A stretch of DNA of 64,000 bases from Candidatus Ozemobacteraceae bacterium (GCA_035373905.1 DAOSOK010000004.1:33271-97270), one strand, 5' to 3'; numbered from the stretch's first letter, positions 39,007 through 46,306 are shown. Notes: generated by a model from the sequence alone, not told the origin. A program made the numbers and translations.

Positions 39007-40497
39007 ATGATCAGATTCGTTGATGTGTGTTTCACACATTCGGACGCGGGTGAGCCGCTGTTCGAGAATGTCAGCCTCCAGTTCGACGCGGGCTGGACGG
39101 GCCTCGTGGGCACGAACGGTTCGGGGAAGACGACGCTGCTGAGGCTTGCAGCCGGCGAGTTGGAGCCGGACGCGGGCCACGTTTTGCGGAAGGGCAGGGC
39201 GGCGTTCTGCAGGCAGCGGACGGACTTCCGCCCCGACGGCTGGGAGACGTTCAGTGCCGCGGTTGATGCCGATGCGGCGCTGCTCAAGGGCGTGCTCGGT
39301 ATCCGGCCGAACTGGTGGGATCGGTGGGAGACGCTGAGCCACGGAGAACGGAAGCGGGCGCAGATCGCCGTCGCTCTGTGGGAAGAGCCTGAGATACTGC
39401 TCGTCGATGAACCGACGAACCACCTGGACGGGGAGAGCGGGACGATGGTCCGCGAGGCGCTCGCATCCTTCAGGGGCATCGGCATTCTCGTCAGCCATGA
39501 TCGGCGGCTCCTCGATGATATATGTGTGAATATTGTATTCATCGAGCCTCCGGGCGTGCTTGTGATTCCCGGCAACTACTCCGATGCGGCCGAACAGAAG
39601 GCGCTTGGCGAAGAGCATCAGCGGCGCCAGCGGAGCGCCGCAAAGGACGAACTCTCGAAACTCCGGCGGGAAGCGGCCCGAAGGCAGGCGGAGGCGGCAA
39701 GGTCGGTCCATCGCCTGTCGAAGCGCCACCTGCACCGCAATGACTCGGACGGCCGGGGAAAGCTCGATCTGGCGCGTCTGACCGGCAAGGACGCGATCGC
39801 CGGCAATTTCGCCCGGCAGCTCCGCAACAGGGTCGTGAGGACGGAAGAGAAGCTCGATTCGATCGGCTTCAAGAAAGAATACGATCTCGCCTATCACATC
39901 GACGGCGAGCGATCGCACCGGGATGTGCTGCTGCGCCTCGGCCAAGGCGTTCTTCCCCTCGGGCCGACGGAAACCCTCGCGTTTCCGGGCCTCGTCGTCG
40001 GGCCTTCAGACAGGATCGGTCTCAGCGGGCCGAACGGCACGGGCAAGAGCAGCTTCGTCAGGCATTTGCTCGGCCGGCTGATTCTGCCGCCGGAGCGGGT
40101 GGTGTATCTTCCCCAGGAAATCCCGGTAGACGAGGGCGAGCGGCTGATCCGCGAAGTGCGAAGCCTGAGCGCGGACGAACTCGGCCGCGTCCTGGCCTTC
40201 GTGAGCTGCCTCGGCACCCGGCCCGAGCGCCTCCTGCGCGGCGACCTGCCCAGTCCCGGCGAGATCCGGAAGATCCTGCTCGCGCTCGGCATCGCCCGGC
40301 GGCCCCACCTGATCGTCATGGACGAGCCGACCAACCATCTCGATCTTCCCGCCATCGAGTTGCTGGAGCGTGCCCTGCGCGACTTTCCCGGCGCTCTGAT
40401 CCTCGTCAGCCACGACACCCGCTTCCTCGACGCCCTCGCGACGGCCCGATGGCGGTTCGAACGGACGGCGGGCGGGGCGCGAATGGAGAAATCATGA
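39007..40497 (+). CDS. ABC-F-type ATPase (two tandem ABC ATP-binding domains, no transmembrane domain)
   Basis: Domain 1: GLVGTNGSGKTT, LSHGERKR, LLVDEPTNHLD. Domain 2: GLSGPNGTGKSS, LSPGEIRKI, IVMDEPTNHLD. An Arg/Glu-rich interdomain linker lies between them. 496 aa. Confidence 0.8.
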   Translation: MIRFVDVCFTHSDAGEPLFENVSLQFDAGWTGLVGTNGSGKTTLLRLAAGELEPDAGHVLRKGRAAFCRQRTDFRPDGWETFSAAVDADAALLKGVLGIRPNWWDRWETLSHGERKRAQIAVALWEEPEILLVDEPTNHLDGESGTMVREALASFRGIGILVSHDRRLLDDICVNIVFIEPPGVLVIPGNYSDAAEQKALGEEHQRRQRSAAKDELSKLRREAARRQAEAARSVHRLSKRHLHRNDSDGRGKLDLARLTGKDAIAGNFARQLRNRVVRTEEKLDSIGFKKEYDLAYHIDGERSHRDVLLRLGQGVLPLGPTETLAFPGLVVGPSDRIGLSGPNGTGKSSFVRHLLGRLILPPERVVYLPQEIPVDEGERLIREVRSLSADELGRVLAFVSCLGTRPERLLRGDLPSPGEIRKILLALGIARRPHLIVMDEPTNHLDLPAIELLERALRDFPGALILVSHDTRFLDALATARWRFERTAGGARMEKS

Positions 40498-41180: not shown

Positions 41181-41255
41181 CGATCACGCGCGGTTCCGCG
41201 TCGGACTGGCGGCCGGCCAGCCTCCGGGCGGAACCGTTTTCTTTTCACGGAGGCT

Positions 41256-41906
41256 GTGCAAGCGTCTCCTGACATTCAAAAGGCGAAGGACACCATGACG
41301 GAAACCACGAAAAAAAACACCAGGAAGACGGGCACGGCGAAGACAACGGCCAAAACGGCCGGAACGAAGAACCCGGCGGTCGCGAAAAAGCCTGCCGCTT
41401 CGAAAAAAGCCGCTTCAACGGCCGGTTCGACAGGGCCCGTCAAACGCACACGAAGCGCTGCCGTTGCGAAAGGTGTGGCCGCCATCAAGCCCCCGCGCCG
41501 GAAAGTCGCTCCGAAGTCCCGCAGCGAAGAGCGCCTCAGCACGCCTCGCAAAGCTTCGTCCCATCACCTTCCCGAACTTCTCCGGAACGTACTGAAGGCG
41601 CTTTCCGACAAGAAGGTCGTCGACCCGGTCCTGCTCGATGTCGAAGGACTGGTTTCATACGCCGACTACTTCGTCCTCGGCACCGGCAACAACACGCCCC
41701 ACGTGCAGGCCATGGCCGACGCGGTCGCCAGGCTGCTCAAGGTGCCCGGCGTGAAGGGCGCCCGCGTCGAGGGCGATTCCCAGGCCTCCTGGGTCCTGAT
41801 CGACGGCGGGGACTTTGTCGTCCACCTGTTCCAGCCCGATGCGCGCCGTTTCTACGCCCTCGACGACCTGTGGGGTGATGCGGCGAGGATTCCCGTCGAG
41901 TCATGA
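41256..41906 (+). CDS. rsfS: ribosome silencing factor RsfS (Iojap) with an about-100-aa Lys/Ala/Thr-rich histone-H1-like N-terminal extension
   Basis: C-terminal 110 aa: VVDPVLLDVEGLVSYADYFVLGTGNNTPHVQAMADAV...WVLIDGGDFVVHLFQPDARRFYALDDLW. N-terminal region: TTKKNTRKTGTAKTTAKTAGTKNPAVAKKPAASKKAAS... Start may be the Met 13 codons downstream. Confidence 0.7.
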   Translation: MQASPDIQKAKDTMTETTKKNTRKTGTAKTTAKTAGTKNPAVAKKPAASKKAASTAGSTGPVKRTRSAAVAKGVAAIKPPRRKVAPKSRSEERLSTPRKASSHHLPELLRNVLKALSDKKVVDPVLLDVEGLVSYADYFVLGTGNNTPHVQAMADAVARLLKVPGVKGARVEGDSQASWVLIDGGDFVVHLFQPDARRFYALDDLWGDAARIPVES

Positions 41907-42607
41907 GTGACCAGGTGCTCGTTCCCCACGCGCGGGTCCTCGAACCTGCGGCGGACGGGGTGCTGAGCGACGAAAACCGGCATTATCTCGAACGTGTCCT
42001 CAGGCTGCGCCCCGACGAGGCGTTCACCCTCACCGACGGCTCCGGCCGTGAAGCCGTCGCGGTTCTCGGGGAAAAGGGGGCATACCGGCTTCAGGAATGG
42101 AGCGACCCCGGCCGCGAACCCGCGTTCGAGACGACGATCTTCTGCGCCGTCTCCAAGGGAGACCGATTCGAGTGGCTGATCGAGAAAGCCGTGGAAATGG
42201 GCGTGCGGCGTATCGTGCCGCTGCTGAGCTCGCGCGTCGTCGCGCCGGTTCCCGGGCCTGCGAAGATCGAGCGATGGCGCAAGATCGCCGTCACCGCCAT
42301 GCTCCAGTGCGGCGGTTGCAGAATTCCGGACGTCACGGAGCCTCTGCCGTTCAAGCATCTGCCCAAACCGGACGAACGCGTGCTGCCGGTGCTGCTTCAC
42401 GAGATTCCGATGGCCGTCTCGCTTCACGAGCTGCCCCGCGCCGAACGACCGGCTCTCTGGCTCGCTTCCGGTCCCGAGGGCGGGTTCGATCCGAACGAGG
42501 TGAAGGCCTTCCTCGAGGCAGGCTGGCGCGCCGTCTGGCTCGGAAAACGCCTGTTCAAGACCGACACGGCCCCCGTCGTCGCGCTTGCGCGGTTGCTTTC
42601 TCATTGA
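41903..42607 (+). CDS. rsmE: 16S rRNA (uracil1498-N3)-methyltransferase
   Basis: RsmE/SPOUT signature (IFCAVSKGDRFEWLIEKAVEMGVRRIVPLLSSR ... LASGPEGGFDPNEV); the ATG overlaps the rsfS stop. Confidence 0.85.
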   Translation: MSDQVLVPHARVLEPAADGVLSDENRHYLERVLRLRPDEAFTLTDGSGREAVAVLGEKGAYRLQEWSDPGREPAFETTIFCAVSKGDRFEWLIEKAVEMGVRRIVPLLSSRVVAPVPGPAKIERWRKIAVTAMLQCGGCRIPDVTEPLPFKHLPKPDERVLPVLLHEIPMAVSLHELPRAERPALWLASGPEGGFDPNEVKAFLEAGWRAVWLGKRLFKTDTAPVVALARLLSH

Positions 42608-42700: not shown

Positions 42701-43984
42701 ATGAAATATACATTTTTACTCAAATCGCTGGGGTGCAAGGTCAGTCAGTATGACGGCATCCGCATCGCGGAGTATCTGAGCGGCTGTGGCCTGCGGCAGG
42801 CGGGCGAAGGCGAAACGCCCGATCTCTATATCCTGAACGGTTGCGCCGTCACCGGCAGGGCTTCCCAGAAGGTACGCCAGGCGTTACGGGCCATACGTCG
42901 GCGCTGGCCCAGCGTGAAGCTCGTTCTGGCCGGATGCGAGGCGCGGCTCGCCGAAAAGCGCGCACCGGAGGAGGGGGATGAGCCTGCCGTGGAGATCGAC
43001 GGGGCGCTTCCGTACGCGACGCCGCCCGCCGTTCGCGAGCTGCTCGAACATCTCGACCTTCTCCGTCCCGATATTCCCGATGCCGGCGACGAGGCCCACG
43101 TTCCCGAAGAGTTGATCGGCAGCGAACGGACCAGGGCGTTTCTGAAAATCCAGGACGGCTGCTCGCAGTTCTGCGCCTACTGTATCGTTCCCCACCTGCG
43201 CGGCCCCGAGACCTCCCGCGGGCGAGCCGAACTCGTCGACGAGGCGCGTCGGATCGTCGCGACGGGCCGTCGCGAGATCGTCGTGACCGGCATCCACGTC
43301 GGCCGGTACGCGCATGGTCTCGTCGCCCTGCTGCGTGAACTGTCGGCCATTGCCGGTCTCGACCGAATCCGGCTGAGCTCGATCGAGCCGGTCGAGGTCG
43401 AGAGCGACCTCGTCGAGTGGCTCGCGACCGATCCGAAAGCCTGCGCGCATCTGCATCTTCCCCTTCAGTCGGGGTGCGACGAGACGCTACGCGCGATGCG
43501 CCGCCCCTACGACACGGCGACCTTCGCCGCTCTCGTGGGGAGGTTGCGCGCTCGCATGCCGGACATCGGCATCAGTACCGACCTGATCGTCGGTTTTCCC
43601 GGCGAGACGGACGAGCGGTTCGCCGCGACGCTCGCCTTCGTCGAACGCCAGAGTTTTTCGCGGATACATATCTTTCGCTATTCTACGCGCGACGGTACGC
43701 CCGCCGCGACGATGCCCGGCCAGGTGCCGAACGCGGTCAAACAGACCCGCGCGAAAGCCGTCGAACGCCTCTGGAAATCTTCGGCCGCCTCGTTTCACGG
43801 CCGCTTCGTCGGCCGCTCCGTCGATGTCCTGTGGGAAACCCGGGAAAACGGCTTCTGGCATGGTCTCAGCCGCGAATACGTCCCCTGCCGCACCGCCACC
43901 GAAGCCGACCTGCACAACGTCATCACCCCAGCGACCGTCACTGCCGCCGACCCCGACGGCTGTGTCACACGCATTGATCCTTAG
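42701..43984 (+). CDS. mtaB: radical-SAM methylthiotransferase of the MiaB/MtaB/RimO family (MTTase N-domain + radical SAM + TRAM)
   Basis: N-terminal UPF0004 Cys triad (LGCKVSQYD, NGCAV, AGC), radical-SAM CSQFCAYC, and a C-terminal TRAM-like region. The mtaB assignment (rather than miaB/rimO) is tentative. Confidence 0.7.
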   Translation: MKYTFLLKSLGCKVSQYDGIRIAEYLSGCGLRQAGEGETPDLYILNGCAVTGRASQKVRQALRAIRRRWPSVKLVLAGCEARLAEKRAPEEGDEPAVEIDGALPYATPPAVRELLEHLDLLRPDIPDAGDEAHVPEELIGSERTRAFLKIQDGCSQFCAYCIVPHLRGPETSRGRAELVDEARRIVATGRREIVVTGIHVGRYAHGLVALLRELSAIAGLDRIRLSSIEPVEVESDLVEWLATDPKACAHLHLPLQSGCDETLRAMRRPYDTATFAALVGRLRARMPDIGISTDLIVGFPGETDERFAATLAFVERQSFSRIHIFRYSTRDGTPAATMPGQVPNAVKQTRAKAVERLWKSSAASFHGRFVGRSVDVLWETRENGFWHGLSREYVPCRTATEADLHNVITPATVTAADPDGCVTRIDP

Positions 43985-44267: not shown

Positions 44268-45773
44268 TTACTTCGTGGTGGCGAGGTTGGCTTTCGCTTC
44301 TTCGATGACGTTCAGGTTGTCGATCGCCATTTCCTTCGTGCGGAGGGTCTCGGCCTTGCTTTTCCCGAAATTGAAGACCTGCTTGTTTGCTTCGTAGGCC
44401 TTGACCTTCTTTTCGTTGGTGCCTTCGTTCATCCAGGCGAGGTTGCACTTCGCATATTCGGACTTCACCTTCTCCATCTCGGCGCACTTCTTCTCGATCA
44501 TCGCCTCGATGGCGGCCTTGTCGGTGCCGGTTTTCTCGCTCAGGCGAAGTTCCTTCGCCATGTTGGTCCGAAGCTCGTCGGTCGTCGCCGGATACTGATC
44601 GATGAGCCGGGTGAACTGCTTCATTTTTTCGGGGTTTTTCTTGTCTTCCTCGCTCAGTTTCTCTATCGCCTTCTCGATCTGCCGGTCGGCCAGCTTCATC
44701 TCGTAGGCTTTCTTCTGGGCATCGGCCATCTCTTTCTGGGACGCGTCTTTCTCATTGTATATCGATGCGAATGATTTCCTGAAAAACTCCTTCTCGTCCT
44801 CCTGGATTTTTGCATCTACCTGCTTCAGAATCTTGTCCGCCTTGTCGGAGGGGCGCTCGCCTTTTTCGGGAAGATTGCCGTCGGGACATTTGATGTCCGC
44901 AAGCTTGTTTCTCATGTCGGTGGCGAACGCGACGTCCGGGTCGGTGCCGACGATCCAGTCATACCACTTCTTGCCCGTATCGATGTCCTCGATCTGCTTG
45001 TTGAGCTCCTTCAGATCGTCTTTTGCCTGGGTGATCGTGTCTTCCTGGACCTTGCTCATGTCGTCGAGCTGCTCTTTCGTCAGGTTCTTGAGAGAGTCGG
45101 CGGACAGCTCCTTGTCGAACCAGGTGCTCTTGTCTGCTTCGTCGATCTTCTCCTTGATCGCCGATGCCGTCTGGAGATTGCTCGCATAGCTTTTGTTCGC
45201 CAGCTGGTAATAATCGTCGCGCATGATCACTGACGTGCGCTCGGTATGCCGGATTTCCTTCTTCGAGCCGGGAACCCGCATCTTGAGGGTGACGGCGACG
45301 TCCACCCGCGCCGACTGCTGGGGATTGGCTTCGGCCTCTTCGGGGGAAAGAGTTTTCTTCGCGACGGTCACGACGTCGACGTGACCCGAGAGCGTGCGCG
45401 GCCCCTTCCCGCTCAACTCGCGCCTCAGAAGCGGCTTGAGGAATGTGTATTTCACGGCGAGGGTTTTGTCCGTCGAAAGCTTTTCCTCACCCTTCGATTT
45501 CTCGTCGACGGCGAACCGTTCAAACTCCATCGAGAGGGGATCGGCCGTCGTTTTGAAGGTGTTCGCCTTGACGGCCTTCAAGTCGGCCGTCAGCATCTGG
45601 ACGATCAGGCGGCTGTCGTGCTGGAGGATCTGACGCGTGCTCGTGATGGCCATGCTTCGCTGCGCCTGGCTCCAGAGATTCATCGTGACGCCGAGGACGA
45701 GCGCGAAGAGGGCGATGCTCACCATGACTTCCGTCATGGTGAATCCCCGTCTGCGTCCAGTTTTCATCGCCAT
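44268..45773 (-). CDS. prepilin-type N-terminal domain protein with an about-400-aa Lys/Glu-rich coiled-coil C-terminal region
   Basis: Start chosen at the ATG at 45773 (MAMKTGRRRG|FTMTEVMVSIALFALVLGV). The C-terminal two thirds are highly charged heptad-like sequence (KEKIDEADKSTWFDKELSADSLKNLTKEQLDDMSKVQED...). The track ORF extends 105 codons further upstream. Confidence 0.6.
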   Translation of the reverse strand: MAMKTGRRRGFTMTEVMVSIALFALVLGVTMNLWSQAQRSMAITSTRQILQHDSRLIVQMLTADLKAVKANTFKTTADPLSMEFERFAVDEKSKGEEKLSTDKTLAVKYTFLKPLLRRELSGKGPRTLSGHVDVVTVAKKTLSPEEAEANPQQSARVDVAVTLKMRVPGSKKEIRHTERTSVIMRDDYYQLANKSYASNLQTASAIKEKIDEADKSTWFDKELSADSLKNLTKEQLDDMSKVQEDTITQAKDDLKELNKQIEDIDTGKKWYDWIVGTDPDVAFATDMRNKLADIKCPDGNLPEKGERPSDKADKILKQVDAKIQEDEKEFFRKSFASIYNEKDASQKEMADAQKKAYEMKLADRQIEKAIEKLSEEDKKNPEKMKQFTRLIDQYPATTDELRTNMAKELRLSEKTGTDKAAIEAMIEKKCAEMEKVKSEYAKCNLAWMNEGTNEKKVKAYEANKQVFNFGKSKAETLRTKEMAIDNLNVIEEAKANLATTK

Positions 45774-45808
45774 ACCTCGATTCTTCGGCCGGAACGGTCG
45801 ATCCGGTT

Positions 45809-46306
45809 TCACAGGAACTTCGTTTCGGGATTGAACACCAGGGCCGTGGCTCTGAGTCTGCGTTCGGGCTGATTGACGGCGGTCTTTCCGCCCTTGTCGC
45901 GCCATCGGATCTCGGCCTCGAAGTAAATCTCGACGAGCTGGTTCGACTCGTTTTTCGTGCCCGTCATCGAGGTCTCCACCCAGAACTCCCGGTCGCCCGT
46001 CTTCTTCTGTTCGTCGAGCGCGGCGACCGTCTCGGGATAATACTTTTCGGGAATCGCGAACTTCTTTTCCTGCAGTACGTCGGGACATTCCTTCACATAC
46101 GTCGCAAAGGGAACGTGCTTGACCTCTTCGATCAGCCGATTGAGGATGGCGGCAGCCTGCGACTGATTGCTGGTTCGCGCCGTGGCGGTGTAGTTGCCGG
46201 TTATCAAACGCAGGAGCGGCAGGAGCGCGAGGGCGATGATGGCGACCGCGACCATGATCTCGATCATGGTGATGCCGCTCCGGCGCCGGTCACGACAAGC
46301 CGTCAT
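45809..46306 (-). CDS. prepilin-type N-terminal cleavage/methylation domain protein (pseudopilin-like)
   Basis: Start at the ATG at 46306: MTACRDRRRSG|ITMIEIMVAVAIIALALLPLL, with Glu at +5. Confidence 0.65.
   Translation of the reverse strand: MTACRDRRRSGITMIEIMVAVAIIALALLPLLRLITGNYTATARTSNQSQAAAILNRLIEEVKHVPFATYVKECPDVLQEKKFAIPEKYYPETVAALDEQKKTGDREFWVETSMTGTKNESNQLVEIYFEAEIRWRDKGGKTAVNQPERRLRATALVFNPETKFL

What the first reader, a model, noticed from the sequence alone, without database searches (positions are those of the whole stretch)
41256..41906. RsfS (ribosome silencing factor) carrying a histone-H1-like Lys/Ala/Thr-rich N-terminal extension
RsfS/Iojap is normally about 110-120 aa. 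Here the conserved domain is preceded by about 100 aa of KA/KT-rich basic low-complexity sequence (TAKTTAKTAGTKNPAVAKKPAASKKAAS...KPPRRKVAPKSR), reminiscent of histone-like tails (e.g. chlamydial Hc1/Hc2-type or AlgP-like repeats). A nucleic-acid-binding tail on a ribosome-hibernation factor could tether silenced 50S subunits to rRNA or DNA, or simply increase affinity.
Basis: seen in the sequence. Interest (0 to 1): 0.5.

Follow-up and report, generated by a model that had tools for sequence, protein, structure and literature searches.

The report
RsfS with a basic disordered tail
This is a genuine ribosome-silencing factor (RsfS) gene whose protein carries a real, conserved, positively charged floppy tail of about 90 residues in front of the normal domain; similar tails recur on this factor in many uncultured bacteria, but their function has not been tested.

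Summary
The ORF 41256-41906 (+) encodes a bona fide RsfS: Pfam PF02410 at 3.5e-28, TIGR00090 equivalog, an AlphaFold core matching solved RsfS structures, and conserved uL14-contact residues. The conserved start is ATG 41295, not GTG 41256. This gives 203 aa: a 91-aa N-terminal extension (pI 11.8, net +20/+21, rich in A, K and T, predicted disordered) and an acidic 112-aa core.

The extension is translated and constrained:
- No in-frame start lies near the core.
- The MTETTKK start is conserved in 11 orthologues.
- All indels are multiples of 3, and third-position substitutions dominate.
- dN/dS is 0.26, against 0.11 for the core.
- Net charge per residue stays at +0.22 to +0.27 across orthologues.
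- The motif IKPPRRKVAPKxRSEER is conserved.

It is not a member of the HC2, Hc1 or H1 families. It has no Pfam hit, no tandem repeats, and only 17% K.

The architecture is not unique. Of the nearest RsfS cluster representatives with a near-complete core match (148 of the 150 listed), 29 carry a strongly basic tail of at least 30 aa (22 N-terminal, 7 C-terminal), in a patchy distribution.

The likeliest role is an electrostatic rRNA-binding appendage that raises affinity for the 50S or pre-50S subunit. This is inferred, not shown. I rate it a new variant of a known kind, of moderate interest.

The parts
41295..41906 (+). rsfS coding sequence (203 aa plus TGA), from the conserved ATG start
   Evidence: Pfam and NCBIfam hits. 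A 100% identical 203-aa NCBI protein is named 'ribosome silencing factor [Candidatus Ozemobacteraceae bacterium]'. The MTETTKK start is conserved in 11 orthologues. L082 has an in-frame stop just upstream of the ATG.
41295..41567 (+). N-terminal polycationic, predicted disordered extension (residues 1-91; net +21; A/K/T-rich)
   Evidence: Composition. AF2 pLDDT is below 50 with no secondary structure. dN/dS is 0.26, and all indels are multiples of 3 with an excess of third-position substitutions. No Pfam hit and no tandem repeats.
41484..41534 (+). Conserved linear motif I64-KPPRRKVAPKSRSEE-R80 inside the extension, followed by PRK at residues 84-86
   Evidence: P67, R68, R69, K70, V71, P73, K74 and R76 are invariant in the 11 close orthologues. 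HMMER aligns this stretch to the basic N-leader of PDB chain 28ye_G, a 152-aa RsfS.
41568..41903 (+). RsfS core domain (residues 92-203, pI about 4.9)
   Evidence: PF02410 and TIGR00090. PDB sequence hits 2o5a, 6sj6, 4wcw and 7bl2. The AF2 core has pLDDT 80-94, and Foldseek gives TM 0.78-0.88 and rmsd about 2 A to solved RsfS. The equivalents of S. aureus W77, D81, D84 and Y98 are conserved.
41256..41294 (+).
   Evidence: GTG or TTG is present in 6 of 7 close orthologous loci but absent in L082, which has a 1-nt indel and an in-frame stop. The invariant GGAGG lies only 2 nt before the GTG and sits in a small conserved hairpin.
41187..41272 (+). Conserved intergenic structure: a long GC-rich hairpin plus T-tract (41187-41245), then a small hairpin containing GGAGG (41245-41272)
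   Evidence: The stems are invariant in 7 orthologous loci, and there is no covariation. No Rfam family matches. Its role, as por-operon terminator or rsfS leader, is undecided.
41903..42607 (+). rsmE (16S rRNA m3U1498 methyltransferase), whose start overlaps the rsfS stop (ATGA); followed by mtaB at 42701-43984
   Evidence: The synteny POR-gamma | rsfS | rsmE | mtaB is conserved in all 8 related loci.

Best explanation
The gene encodes a functional RsfS, a factor that binds uL14 on the 50S subunit and blocks subunit joining. In the Ozemobacteraceae lineage it has acquired a translated, selectively maintained N-terminal tail of about 90 residues that is intrinsically disordered and polycationic.

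Shown:
- The core is a canonical RsfS with intact uL14-contact residues.
- The tail is coding and under purifying selection.
- The tail keeps a constant charge density and contains a conserved PRRKVAPK-type motif next to the core.

Inferred:
- The tail acts as an electrostatic nucleic-acid-binding arm that contacts 23S rRNA around the uL14/bL19/H95 site on mature or pre-50S particles.
- This raises the on-rate and affinity of an otherwise acidic core, and possibly enlarges the block to 30S joining, much as ribosomal-protein extensions do.
- The membrane-distal K/A/T-rich part supplies charge that is independent of sequence. The conserved motif next to helix 1 supplies a more specific contact.

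The same solution, a basic tail at either the N or the C terminus, has arisen repeatedly in other RsfS lineages.
For: Family membership:
- Pfam and NCBIfam matches.
- PDB sequence matches.
- Fold match to solved RsfS.
- W, D, D and Y uL14-contact residues conserved (residues from PMC7125091 and PMC9503621).

The tail is translated:
- The only in-frame starts upstream of the core are codons 1, 14 and 74. Codon 74 is not conserved.
- The ATG start is conserved in 11 orthologues, and the upstream frame is closed in L082.
- Median dN/dS is 0.26 over 21 pairs.
- Substitutions by codon position are 444/325/776, and all gap runs in a raw DNA alignment are multiples of 3.

Selection acts on charge rather than sequence:
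- Net charge per residue is +0.22 to +0.27 in P0001-P0015, although tail length ranges from 56 to 95 aa and, in the seven close orthologous loci, tail identity falls to about 50%.
- The syntenic orthologue L086 keeps +14 with an otherwise unalignable tail.

Position independence and recurrence:
- P0098, whose core is 58% identical, has a 144-aa basic tail at the C terminus instead.
- 22 N-basic and 7 C-basic tails occur among the nearest representatives with a near-complete core match (148 of the 150 listed). On a core NJ tree these require at least 18 and 7 state changes.

The binding site is rRNA-lined. The RsfS cavity includes bL19 and H95, and the acidic RsfS face binds basic uL14 (PMC7125091).

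The operon partners rsmE and mtaB are rRNA and tRNA modification enzymes.
Against: - There is no direct evidence on what the tail binds. Nothing here distinguishes rRNA from DNA, polyphosphate, or intramolecular contact with the acidic core.
- The orientation of the RsfS N terminus on the 50S could not be examined with these tools.
- Tailed RsfS do not have more acidic cores than untailed ones (Mann-Whitney p=0.07, and the trend runs the opposite way). The tail is therefore not compensating for a lost basic patch.
- Basic low-complexity tails are common on many bacterial proteins, so some of the recurrence may reflect lineage-wide compositional habits rather than RsfS-specific selection.
- The core NJ tree rests on about 100 columns and is weak.
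Confidence: 0.55

Rival explanations
1. The tail is a histone-like DNA or nucleoid-binding module. It would tether silenced 50S subunits, or RsfS itself, to the chromosome, as the K/A tails of HU/HupB, Ku or chlamydial Hc proteins bind DNA.
For: The composition is polycationic, A/K-rich and disordered. Some C-terminal RsfS tails in other lineages do give weak or sub-threshold HC2 (PF07382) hits: P0076, P0079 and P0089, and P0087 at 4e-05 (24 bits, below the 40-bit cut-off). A TPRK motif at residues 83-86 resembles the SPKK-type minor-groove motifs (own knowledge).
Against: The window's tail has no HC2 or other Pfam hit at E<=1. It has no tandem repeats, and its charge density is about +0.23. 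The protein's only folded domain targets the ribosome, and its operon partners act on RNA. No data favour DNA over RNA.
Confidence: 0.12
2. The tail serves 50S biogenesis rather than hibernation. It would act as an RNA-chaperone-like arm that helps late 23S rRNA folding while RsfS sits on pre-50S particles.
For: RsfS is found on pre-50S assembly intermediates, in PDB 7bl2-7bl5 and 9ss4, which match the core. The gene is translationally coupled to rsmE and followed by mtaB. Lysine-rich IDRs of snoRNPs act in rRNA maturation (PMC11528048, seen).
Against: There is no direct evidence. This idea overlaps the best explanation (same binding partner, different physiological context) and cannot be separated from it in silico.
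Confidence: 0.18
3. The tail is a tolerated low-complexity expansion with no function beyond not interfering.
For: The tail evolves faster than the core (dN/dS 0.26 against 0.11, identity 47-82% against 73-99%). It has many indels. Close relatives P0016, P0017, P0097 and P0106 manage without it.
Against: dN/dS is well below 1. Motif residues are invariant. Charge density is nearly constant across orthologues of different tail length. Basic tails, rather than neutral ones, were acquired repeatedly and independently.
Confidence: 0.1
4. The extension is an annotation artefact, and translation really starts at the RsfS core.
For: In a Dokdonella relative, NCBI's pipeline called a 111-aa product starting at the edge of the core, while other gene callers gave 228 aa. 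So such tails are sometimes annotated away.
Against: In the window there is no ATG, GTG or TTG between codon 74 and the interior of the domain. The tail shows coding-type substitution patterns and frame-preserving indels. Independent gene calls in 8 loci all include it.
Confidence: 0.03

Closest known systems
Canonical bacterial RsfS/RsfA/YbeB (E. coli, 105 aa; S. aureus, 117 aa, PDB 6SJ6; M. tuberculosis, PDB 4WCW; Pfam PF02410, TIGR00090)
   Same: The core domain is the same in sequence, in fold (TM 0.8-0.88) and in the uL14-contact residues W, D, D and Y. The core is acidic. By homology, the expected mechanism is binding to uL14 and blocking bridge B8 (PMC7125091).
   Different: The characterised proteins consist of the domain alone, at 105-126 aa. 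This one has 91 extra N-terminal residues carrying net +21. The operon context is por | rsfS-rsmE-mtaB rather than the usual nadD-rsfS-rlmH (the latter from own knowledge).
RsfS with a short basic N-leader (PDB 28ye_G, 152 aa 'Ribosome silencing factor S'; Zymomonas Iojap-like protein 3UPS, 136 aa)
   Same: A Pro/Arg/Lys-rich stretch (TPRKKAAAAGPRKTRAAAAPRE, SSPRKNQ) lies immediately before helix 1. HMMER aligns it to window residues 66-91, the PRRKVAPK...PRK region.
   Different: Those leaders are only about 20-40 residues long and lack the distal K/A/T-rich 60 residues. I could not find the paper for 28ye, so I do not know what its leader contacts.
K/A-rich tails of bacterial nucleic-acid-binding proteins (mycobacterial HupB and Ku PAKKA repeats, PMC3553676; AlgP; chlamydial Hc1 and Hc2, PF07382) and the histone H1 C-terminal domain
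   Same: It is a disordered, polycationic, Ala/Lys-rich appendage fused to a folded domain, and presumably binds polyanions electrostatically.
   Different: There are no tandem repeats and no HMM match. It is Thr/Ser-rich with lower lysine density (K 17%). It is attached to a ribosome-binding domain, not a DNA-binding one.
Basic extensions of ribosomal proteins, and MALSU1 (the mitochondrial RsfS homologue, which has an N-terminal extension and partner proteins)
   Same: A folded domain on the ribosome surface carries an extended basic segment that could thread along rRNA. The MALSU1 core aligns to this core.
   Different: The MALSU1 extension is unrelated in sequence, and MALSU1 works with L0R8F8 and mt-ACP. 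Ribosomal-protein extensions are permanent structural parts of the ribosome, whereas this one belongs to a transient factor.

Membership tests
RsfS / Iojap / YbeB (PF02410, TIGR00090) | Profile match above the curated thresholds | tested here: met
   PF02410 scores 98.2 bits (cut-off 21.6), and the TIGR00090 equivalog scores 96.4 bits (cut-off 56.9).
RsfS / Iojap / YbeB (PF02410, TIGR00090) | Alpha/beta RsfS fold | tested here: met
   The AF2 core has pLDDT 80-94. Foldseek against solved RsfS structures (6sj6, 4wcw, 2o5a, 2id1) gives E about 1e-10, TM 0.78-0.88 and rmsd 2.0-2.7 A.
RsfS / Iojap / YbeB (PF02410, TIGR00090) | Conserved uL14-contact residues (S. aureus W77, D81, D84, Y98) | tested here: met
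   All four are present in the window protein (W166, D170, D173, Y187) and are invariant or nearly so in 148 representatives. Their roles are described in PMC7125091 and PMC9503621.
RsfS / Iojap / YbeB (PF02410, TIGR00090) | Binds uL14 on the 50S and prevents 70S formation | not testable with these tools
   This needs co-sedimentation and light-scattering anti-association assays.
RsfS / Iojap / YbeB (PF02410, TIGR00090) | Usual gene neighbourhood nadD-(yqeK)-rsfS-rlmH (typical, not defining) | tested here: not met
   The order here is POR-gamma | rsfS | rsmE | mtaB, conserved in 8 loci. NadD-RsfS and HD-RsfS fusions in other lineages (P0180, P0244, P0188) reflect the usual neighbourhood.
Histone H1-like bacterial nucleoproteins (Hc2 PF07382, Hc1, AlgP-type repeats) | Profile match to the family | tested here: not met
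   The extension alone has 0 Pfam families at E<=1. The full protein matches only RsfS at E<=0.01.
Histone H1-like bacterial nucleoproteins (Hc2 PF07382, Hc1, AlgP-type repeats) | Tandem short Lys/Ala(/Pro) repeats and very high lysine density | tested here: not met
   TRF finds no repeats at minimum score 30. K is 17%, R 8%, T 15%, and net charge per residue is +0.23.
Histone H1-like bacterial nucleoproteins (Hc2 PF07382, Hc1, AlgP-type repeats) | DNA binding and compaction | not testable with these tools
   This needs EMSA or compaction assays.
Polycationic intrinsically disordered tails (a functional class, not a homology family) | Predicted disorder, strong net positive charge, and conservation of composition rather than sequence | tested here: met
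   pLDDT is below 50 with no secondary structure over residues 1-90. Net charge is +21 over 91 aa, and charge density is +0.22 to +0.27 across orthologues despite 47-82% tail identity in the seven close loci.

The most novel reading that the evidence does not exclude
'Tailed RsfS' would be a distinct, convergently evolved functional subclass. In it, a polycationic disordered arm at either terminus gives the silencing factor a second, nucleic-acid-binding valency. This would change what RsfS does: for example, locking 50S or pre-50S particles more tightly, bridging them to other RNA or DNA, or driving their storage in condensates during starvation. It would then be more than a simple adjustment of affinity. 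The conserved PRRKVAPK motif would be a specific docking element on 23S rRNA or a ribosomal protein.
Probability: 0.15. Interest if true: 0.6.

Novelty: new variant of a known kind. Interest (0 to 1): 0.35.

Why it matters
RsfS is a near-universal ribosome silencing and late-assembly factor. It has been studied only in its minimal form of 105-126 aa. Here, about one in five of the nearest RsfS cluster representatives carries a strongly basic tail, at either end, and the tail in this lineage is under purifying selection with a fixed charge density. This suggests an unstudied and repeatedly selected way of modulating the RsfS-ribosome interaction.

There is also a practical annotation point. Pipelines disagree on whether such tails are translated: the Dokdonella protein is called at 111 aa by one and 228 aa by others.

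The finding does not change the known mechanism of RsfS. Basic low-complexity tails are a common bacterial theme, so the significance is moderate.

Tried and rejected
1. GTG 41256 as the start. Rejected as the conserved start. L082 has a 1-nt indel and an in-frame stop 4 codons before the ATG. The GGAGG lies only 2 nt from the GTG and is part of a hairpin. GTG use in this particular genome cannot be fully excluded, but it would add only 13 residues.

2. GTG at codon 74 as the start. The Val is not conserved in orthologues (A in P0002 and P0003), and 35 extra residues would still remain.

3. Membership of HC2, Hc1 or H1. No Pfam hit and no tandem repeats.

4. The idea that the tail compensates for a more acidic core or a lost rRNA-contact patch. 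Core net charge does not differ between tailed and untailed RsfS (p=0.07, in the wrong direction). The positions equivalent to S. aureus R53 and K56 are D/E or A/E in most relatives regardless of tail.

5. Acidobacteriota loci that tblastn aligned into the tail region (L004, L019 and others). On inspection, their N-extensions are neutral, about 32 aa (MKHNSTAKEQSL...), or are over-extended R-rich ORFs. They are not homologous basic tails.

6. A database search with the extension alone. There were 62 word candidates and none scored, so the search was uninformative, probably because of the low-complexity correction.

7. An Rfam search of the conserved upstream structure. It returned only a chance-level hit. 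The sigma-70 promoter scan found nothing.

8. Taxonomy look-ups for Ozemobacter(aceae) found no entry. The lineage name rests on NCBI protein names.

9. Cluster look-ups for the taxonomy of other tailed RsfS gave only one organism name, Dokdonella.

10. Seven literature searches found no description of basic or low-complexity tails on bacterial RsfS.

Full report
**What is at the coordinates**

The ORF at 41256-41906 on the + strand is real. Its C-terminal half is an unambiguous RsfS domain:
- Pfam PF02410 matches at E=3.5e-28, covering 97 of the 98 profile positions (2-98).
- The NCBIfam equivalog TIGR00090 scores 96 bits against a cut-off of 57.
- Solved RsfS proteins from Bacillus halodurans, S. 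aureus, M. tuberculosis and E. coli match the core at E=1e-17 to 1e-23. Mitochondrial MALSU1 matches at about 1e-12.
- An AlphaFold2 model built on 20 homologues gives a confident core (pLDDT 80-94, residues 91-200). Foldseek places it on solved RsfS structures with TM 0.78-0.88 and rmsd about 2 A.
- The residues that S. aureus RsfS uses to hold uL14 (W77, D81, D84, Y98; PMC7125091 and PMC9503621) are all present.

An identical 203-aa protein is already in NCBI as 'ribosome silencing factor [Candidatus Ozemobacteraceae bacterium]'. The window therefore comes from that uncultured lineage, which from my own knowledge belongs to the candidate phylum Riflebacteria.

**The start codon**

In-frame start codons upstream of the domain exist only at codon 1 (GTG 41256), codon 14 (ATG 41295) and codon 74 (GTG 41475). 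The next ones lie inside the domain.
- Eleven close orthologues all begin M(T/K)ETTKK at the ATG.
- In orthologous locus L082, a 1-nt indel places an in-frame stop four codons upstream of the ATG, so the GTG cannot be the shared start.
- The Val at codon 74 is not conserved.

The protein is therefore 203 aa. It has a 91-residue extension (41295-41567) and a 112-residue core (41568-41903).

**The extension is real protein**
- Median Nei-Gojobori dN/dS over 21 orthologue pairs is 0.26 for the extension and 0.11 for the core.
- Substitutions in the extension fall 444/325/776 on codon positions 1/2/3.
- Every gap run in a raw DNA alignment is a multiple of three.
- Eight independently called loci all include the extension, and all share the gene order POR-gamma | rsfS | rsmE | mtaB. 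The rsfS stop overlaps the rsmE start (ATGA).

**What the extension looks like**
- It is A 18-19%, K 17-18%, T 15%, S 9-10%, R 8-9% and P 8%, with pI 11.8 and net +20/+21. The core has pI 4.9.
- AlphaFold gives pLDDT below 50 and no secondary structure for residues 1-90.
- It has no tandem repeats and no Pfam match even at E<=1. It is therefore not a member of the HC2, Hc1 or linker-histone families. 'H1-like' is only a loose compositional analogy.
- Conservation is uneven. It is high at the first ten residues, at VKR (residues 49-51), and above all in I64-KPPRRKVAPKxRSEE-R80 followed by PRK. Between these islands the sequence and length drift freely.
- Net charge per residue stays at +0.22 to +0.27 in all orthologues P0001-P0015, whose tails range from 56 to 95 aa.
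- The syntenic but distant orthologue L086 keeps +14 with a tail that is otherwise unalignable.

This is the signature of selection on charge and disorder, combined with one short linear motif next to the folded domain.

**How unusual it is**

Characterised RsfS proteins are 105-126 aa. A word-index search returned many RsfS with K/A-rich C-terminal tails, but that search is biased towards K/A words. I therefore searched the 1.84-billion-protein representative library with the core alone and measured the flanks of the best 150 hits against a core HMM.
- 57 have at least 30 residues before the core, and 25 have at least 60.
- 21 have an N-extension of at least 30 aa with net charge of at least +8.
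- 7 have a C-extension meeting the same criteria.
- Examples include P0166 (150-aa tail, K35 A37), P0230, P0234, P0183, P0204, P0215 and P0222.

On a neighbour-joining tree of the cores, the basic-tail states are scattered. They require at least 18 changes for N-tails and 7 for C-tails. The tree is weak because it rests on about 100 columns.

Among the 12 representatives with E<1e-30:
- 7 carry N-extensions of at least 60 aa. Six of these are clearly basic (net +11 to +26; P0105 is only +1).
- 1 (P0098, core 58% identical) carries a 144-aa basic tail at the C terminus instead.
- 4 lack a basic tail. P0097 and P0106 have essentially no extension, P0102 has a neutral 31-aa N-extension, and P0101 has a mildly acidic 48-aa C-extension.

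One further N-tailed cluster (P0038, 115-aa K/A tail) contains a Dokdonella (Gammaproteobacteria) member. NCBI annotates that member at 111 aa, starting at the edge of the core.

Acidobacteriota (Pyrinomonadaceae) RsfS have a different, neutral N-extension of about 32 aa. A structurally studied 152-aa RsfS (PDB 28ye_G) has a short basic leader that HMMER aligns to the PRRKVAPK...PRK region. I could not find its paper.

Seven literature searches found no description of such tails on bacterial RsfS.

**Mechanism**

Shown: a canonical RsfS core, and a translated, constrained, disordered polycationic tail.

Established for the family: the acidic sheet of RsfS binds basic uL14 in a cavity lined by bL19 and 23S rRNA helix 95, and this blocks bridge B8 (PMC7125091). 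RsfS also sits on late pre-50S particles (PDB 7bl2 and 9ss4).

Inferred:
- The tail is an electrostatic arm that contacts rRNA around this site. It would raise the on-rate and affinity for 50S or pre-50S particles and possibly add to the block on subunit joining.
- The conserved motif adjacent to helix 1 would provide a more specific contact.
- Tails at either terminus in close relatives argue that the function is largely independent of position.

I rate this at about 0.55. The rivals are:
- A DNA or nucleoid tether (0.12).
- A primarily assembly-chaperone role (0.18, overlapping the best explanation).
- A functionless expansion (0.10).
- A mis-called start (0.03).

A compensation hypothesis, in which tails offset more acidic cores, was tested and rejected.

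**Verdict**

The histone-family interpretation is not supported. The idea of a nucleic-acid-binding tail on a hibernation factor is plausible but untested.

The case is a new variant of a known kind: an RsfS with an accessory polycationic IDR. It is one instance of a recurrent architecture that, as far as I could find, has not been described. Interest is moderate (0.35).

Noticed in passing
window 41187-41272 (intergenic, + strand): A long GC-rich hairpin (GCGGTTCCGC...GCGGAACCG) followed by a T-tract, then a small hairpin containing an invariant GGAGG. It lies only about 50 nt upstream of the rsfS ATG. Its sequence is conserved in 7 orthologous loci, with no covariation, no Rfam family, and no sigma-70-like promoter nearby. 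It could be the por-operon terminator, or a leader or attenuator for rsfS-rsmE-mtaB.
   Followed up: partly
window 39007-40497 (+): A 496-aa protein with two ABC_tran domains plus ABC_tran_Xtn, the ABC-F type of ribosome-associated ATPase. It lies between two paralogous 2-oxoacid:ferredoxin oxidoreductase gamma-subunit genes, just upstream of rsfS. The arrangement is conserved in related loci.
   Followed up: no
window 44268-46088 (-): A prepilin-type (N_methyl) protein with a GFTMTEVMVSIALFAL signal-like segment and a long K/E-rich, coiled-coil-like C-terminal region. The longest-ORF start, with its R-rich N-terminus, looks over-extended. Homologues in related loci are about 500 aa.
   Followed up: no
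proteins P0180, P0244, P0188: RsfS occurs as natural fusions with NadD (400 and 407 aa) and with an HD/YqeK-like domain (321 aa). These mirror the usual nadD-yqeK-rsfS neighbourhood.
   Followed up: no
loci L003-L080 (Pyrinomonadaceae and other Acidobacteriota): These RsfS carry a conserved, roughly neutral N-extension of about 32 aa (MKHNSTAKEQSLHP...) and a C-extension of about 22 aa ending ...SSLRSES. This is a different and also undescribed decoration of the same domain.
   Followed up: partly
proteins P0038 and P0091: In a Dokdonella-like RsfS, NCBI's call is 111 aa, with a Leu codon at the core edge read as the start. Other gene callers give 228 aa with a 115-aa K/A-rich N-tail. Annotation pipelines disagree on whether such tails are translated.
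   Followed up: partly
protein P0098: A close relative of the window's RsfS core (58% identity) has no N-tail but carries a 144-aa basic K/S/T/A-rich C-terminal tail. The tail appears to have swapped ends within one clade.
   Followed up: partly
window 41903-41906: The rsfS stop codon and the rsmE start codon overlap (ATGA), implying translational coupling of the silencing factor with a 16S rRNA methyltransferase. The overlap is conserved in the close orthologous loci.
   Followed up: partly
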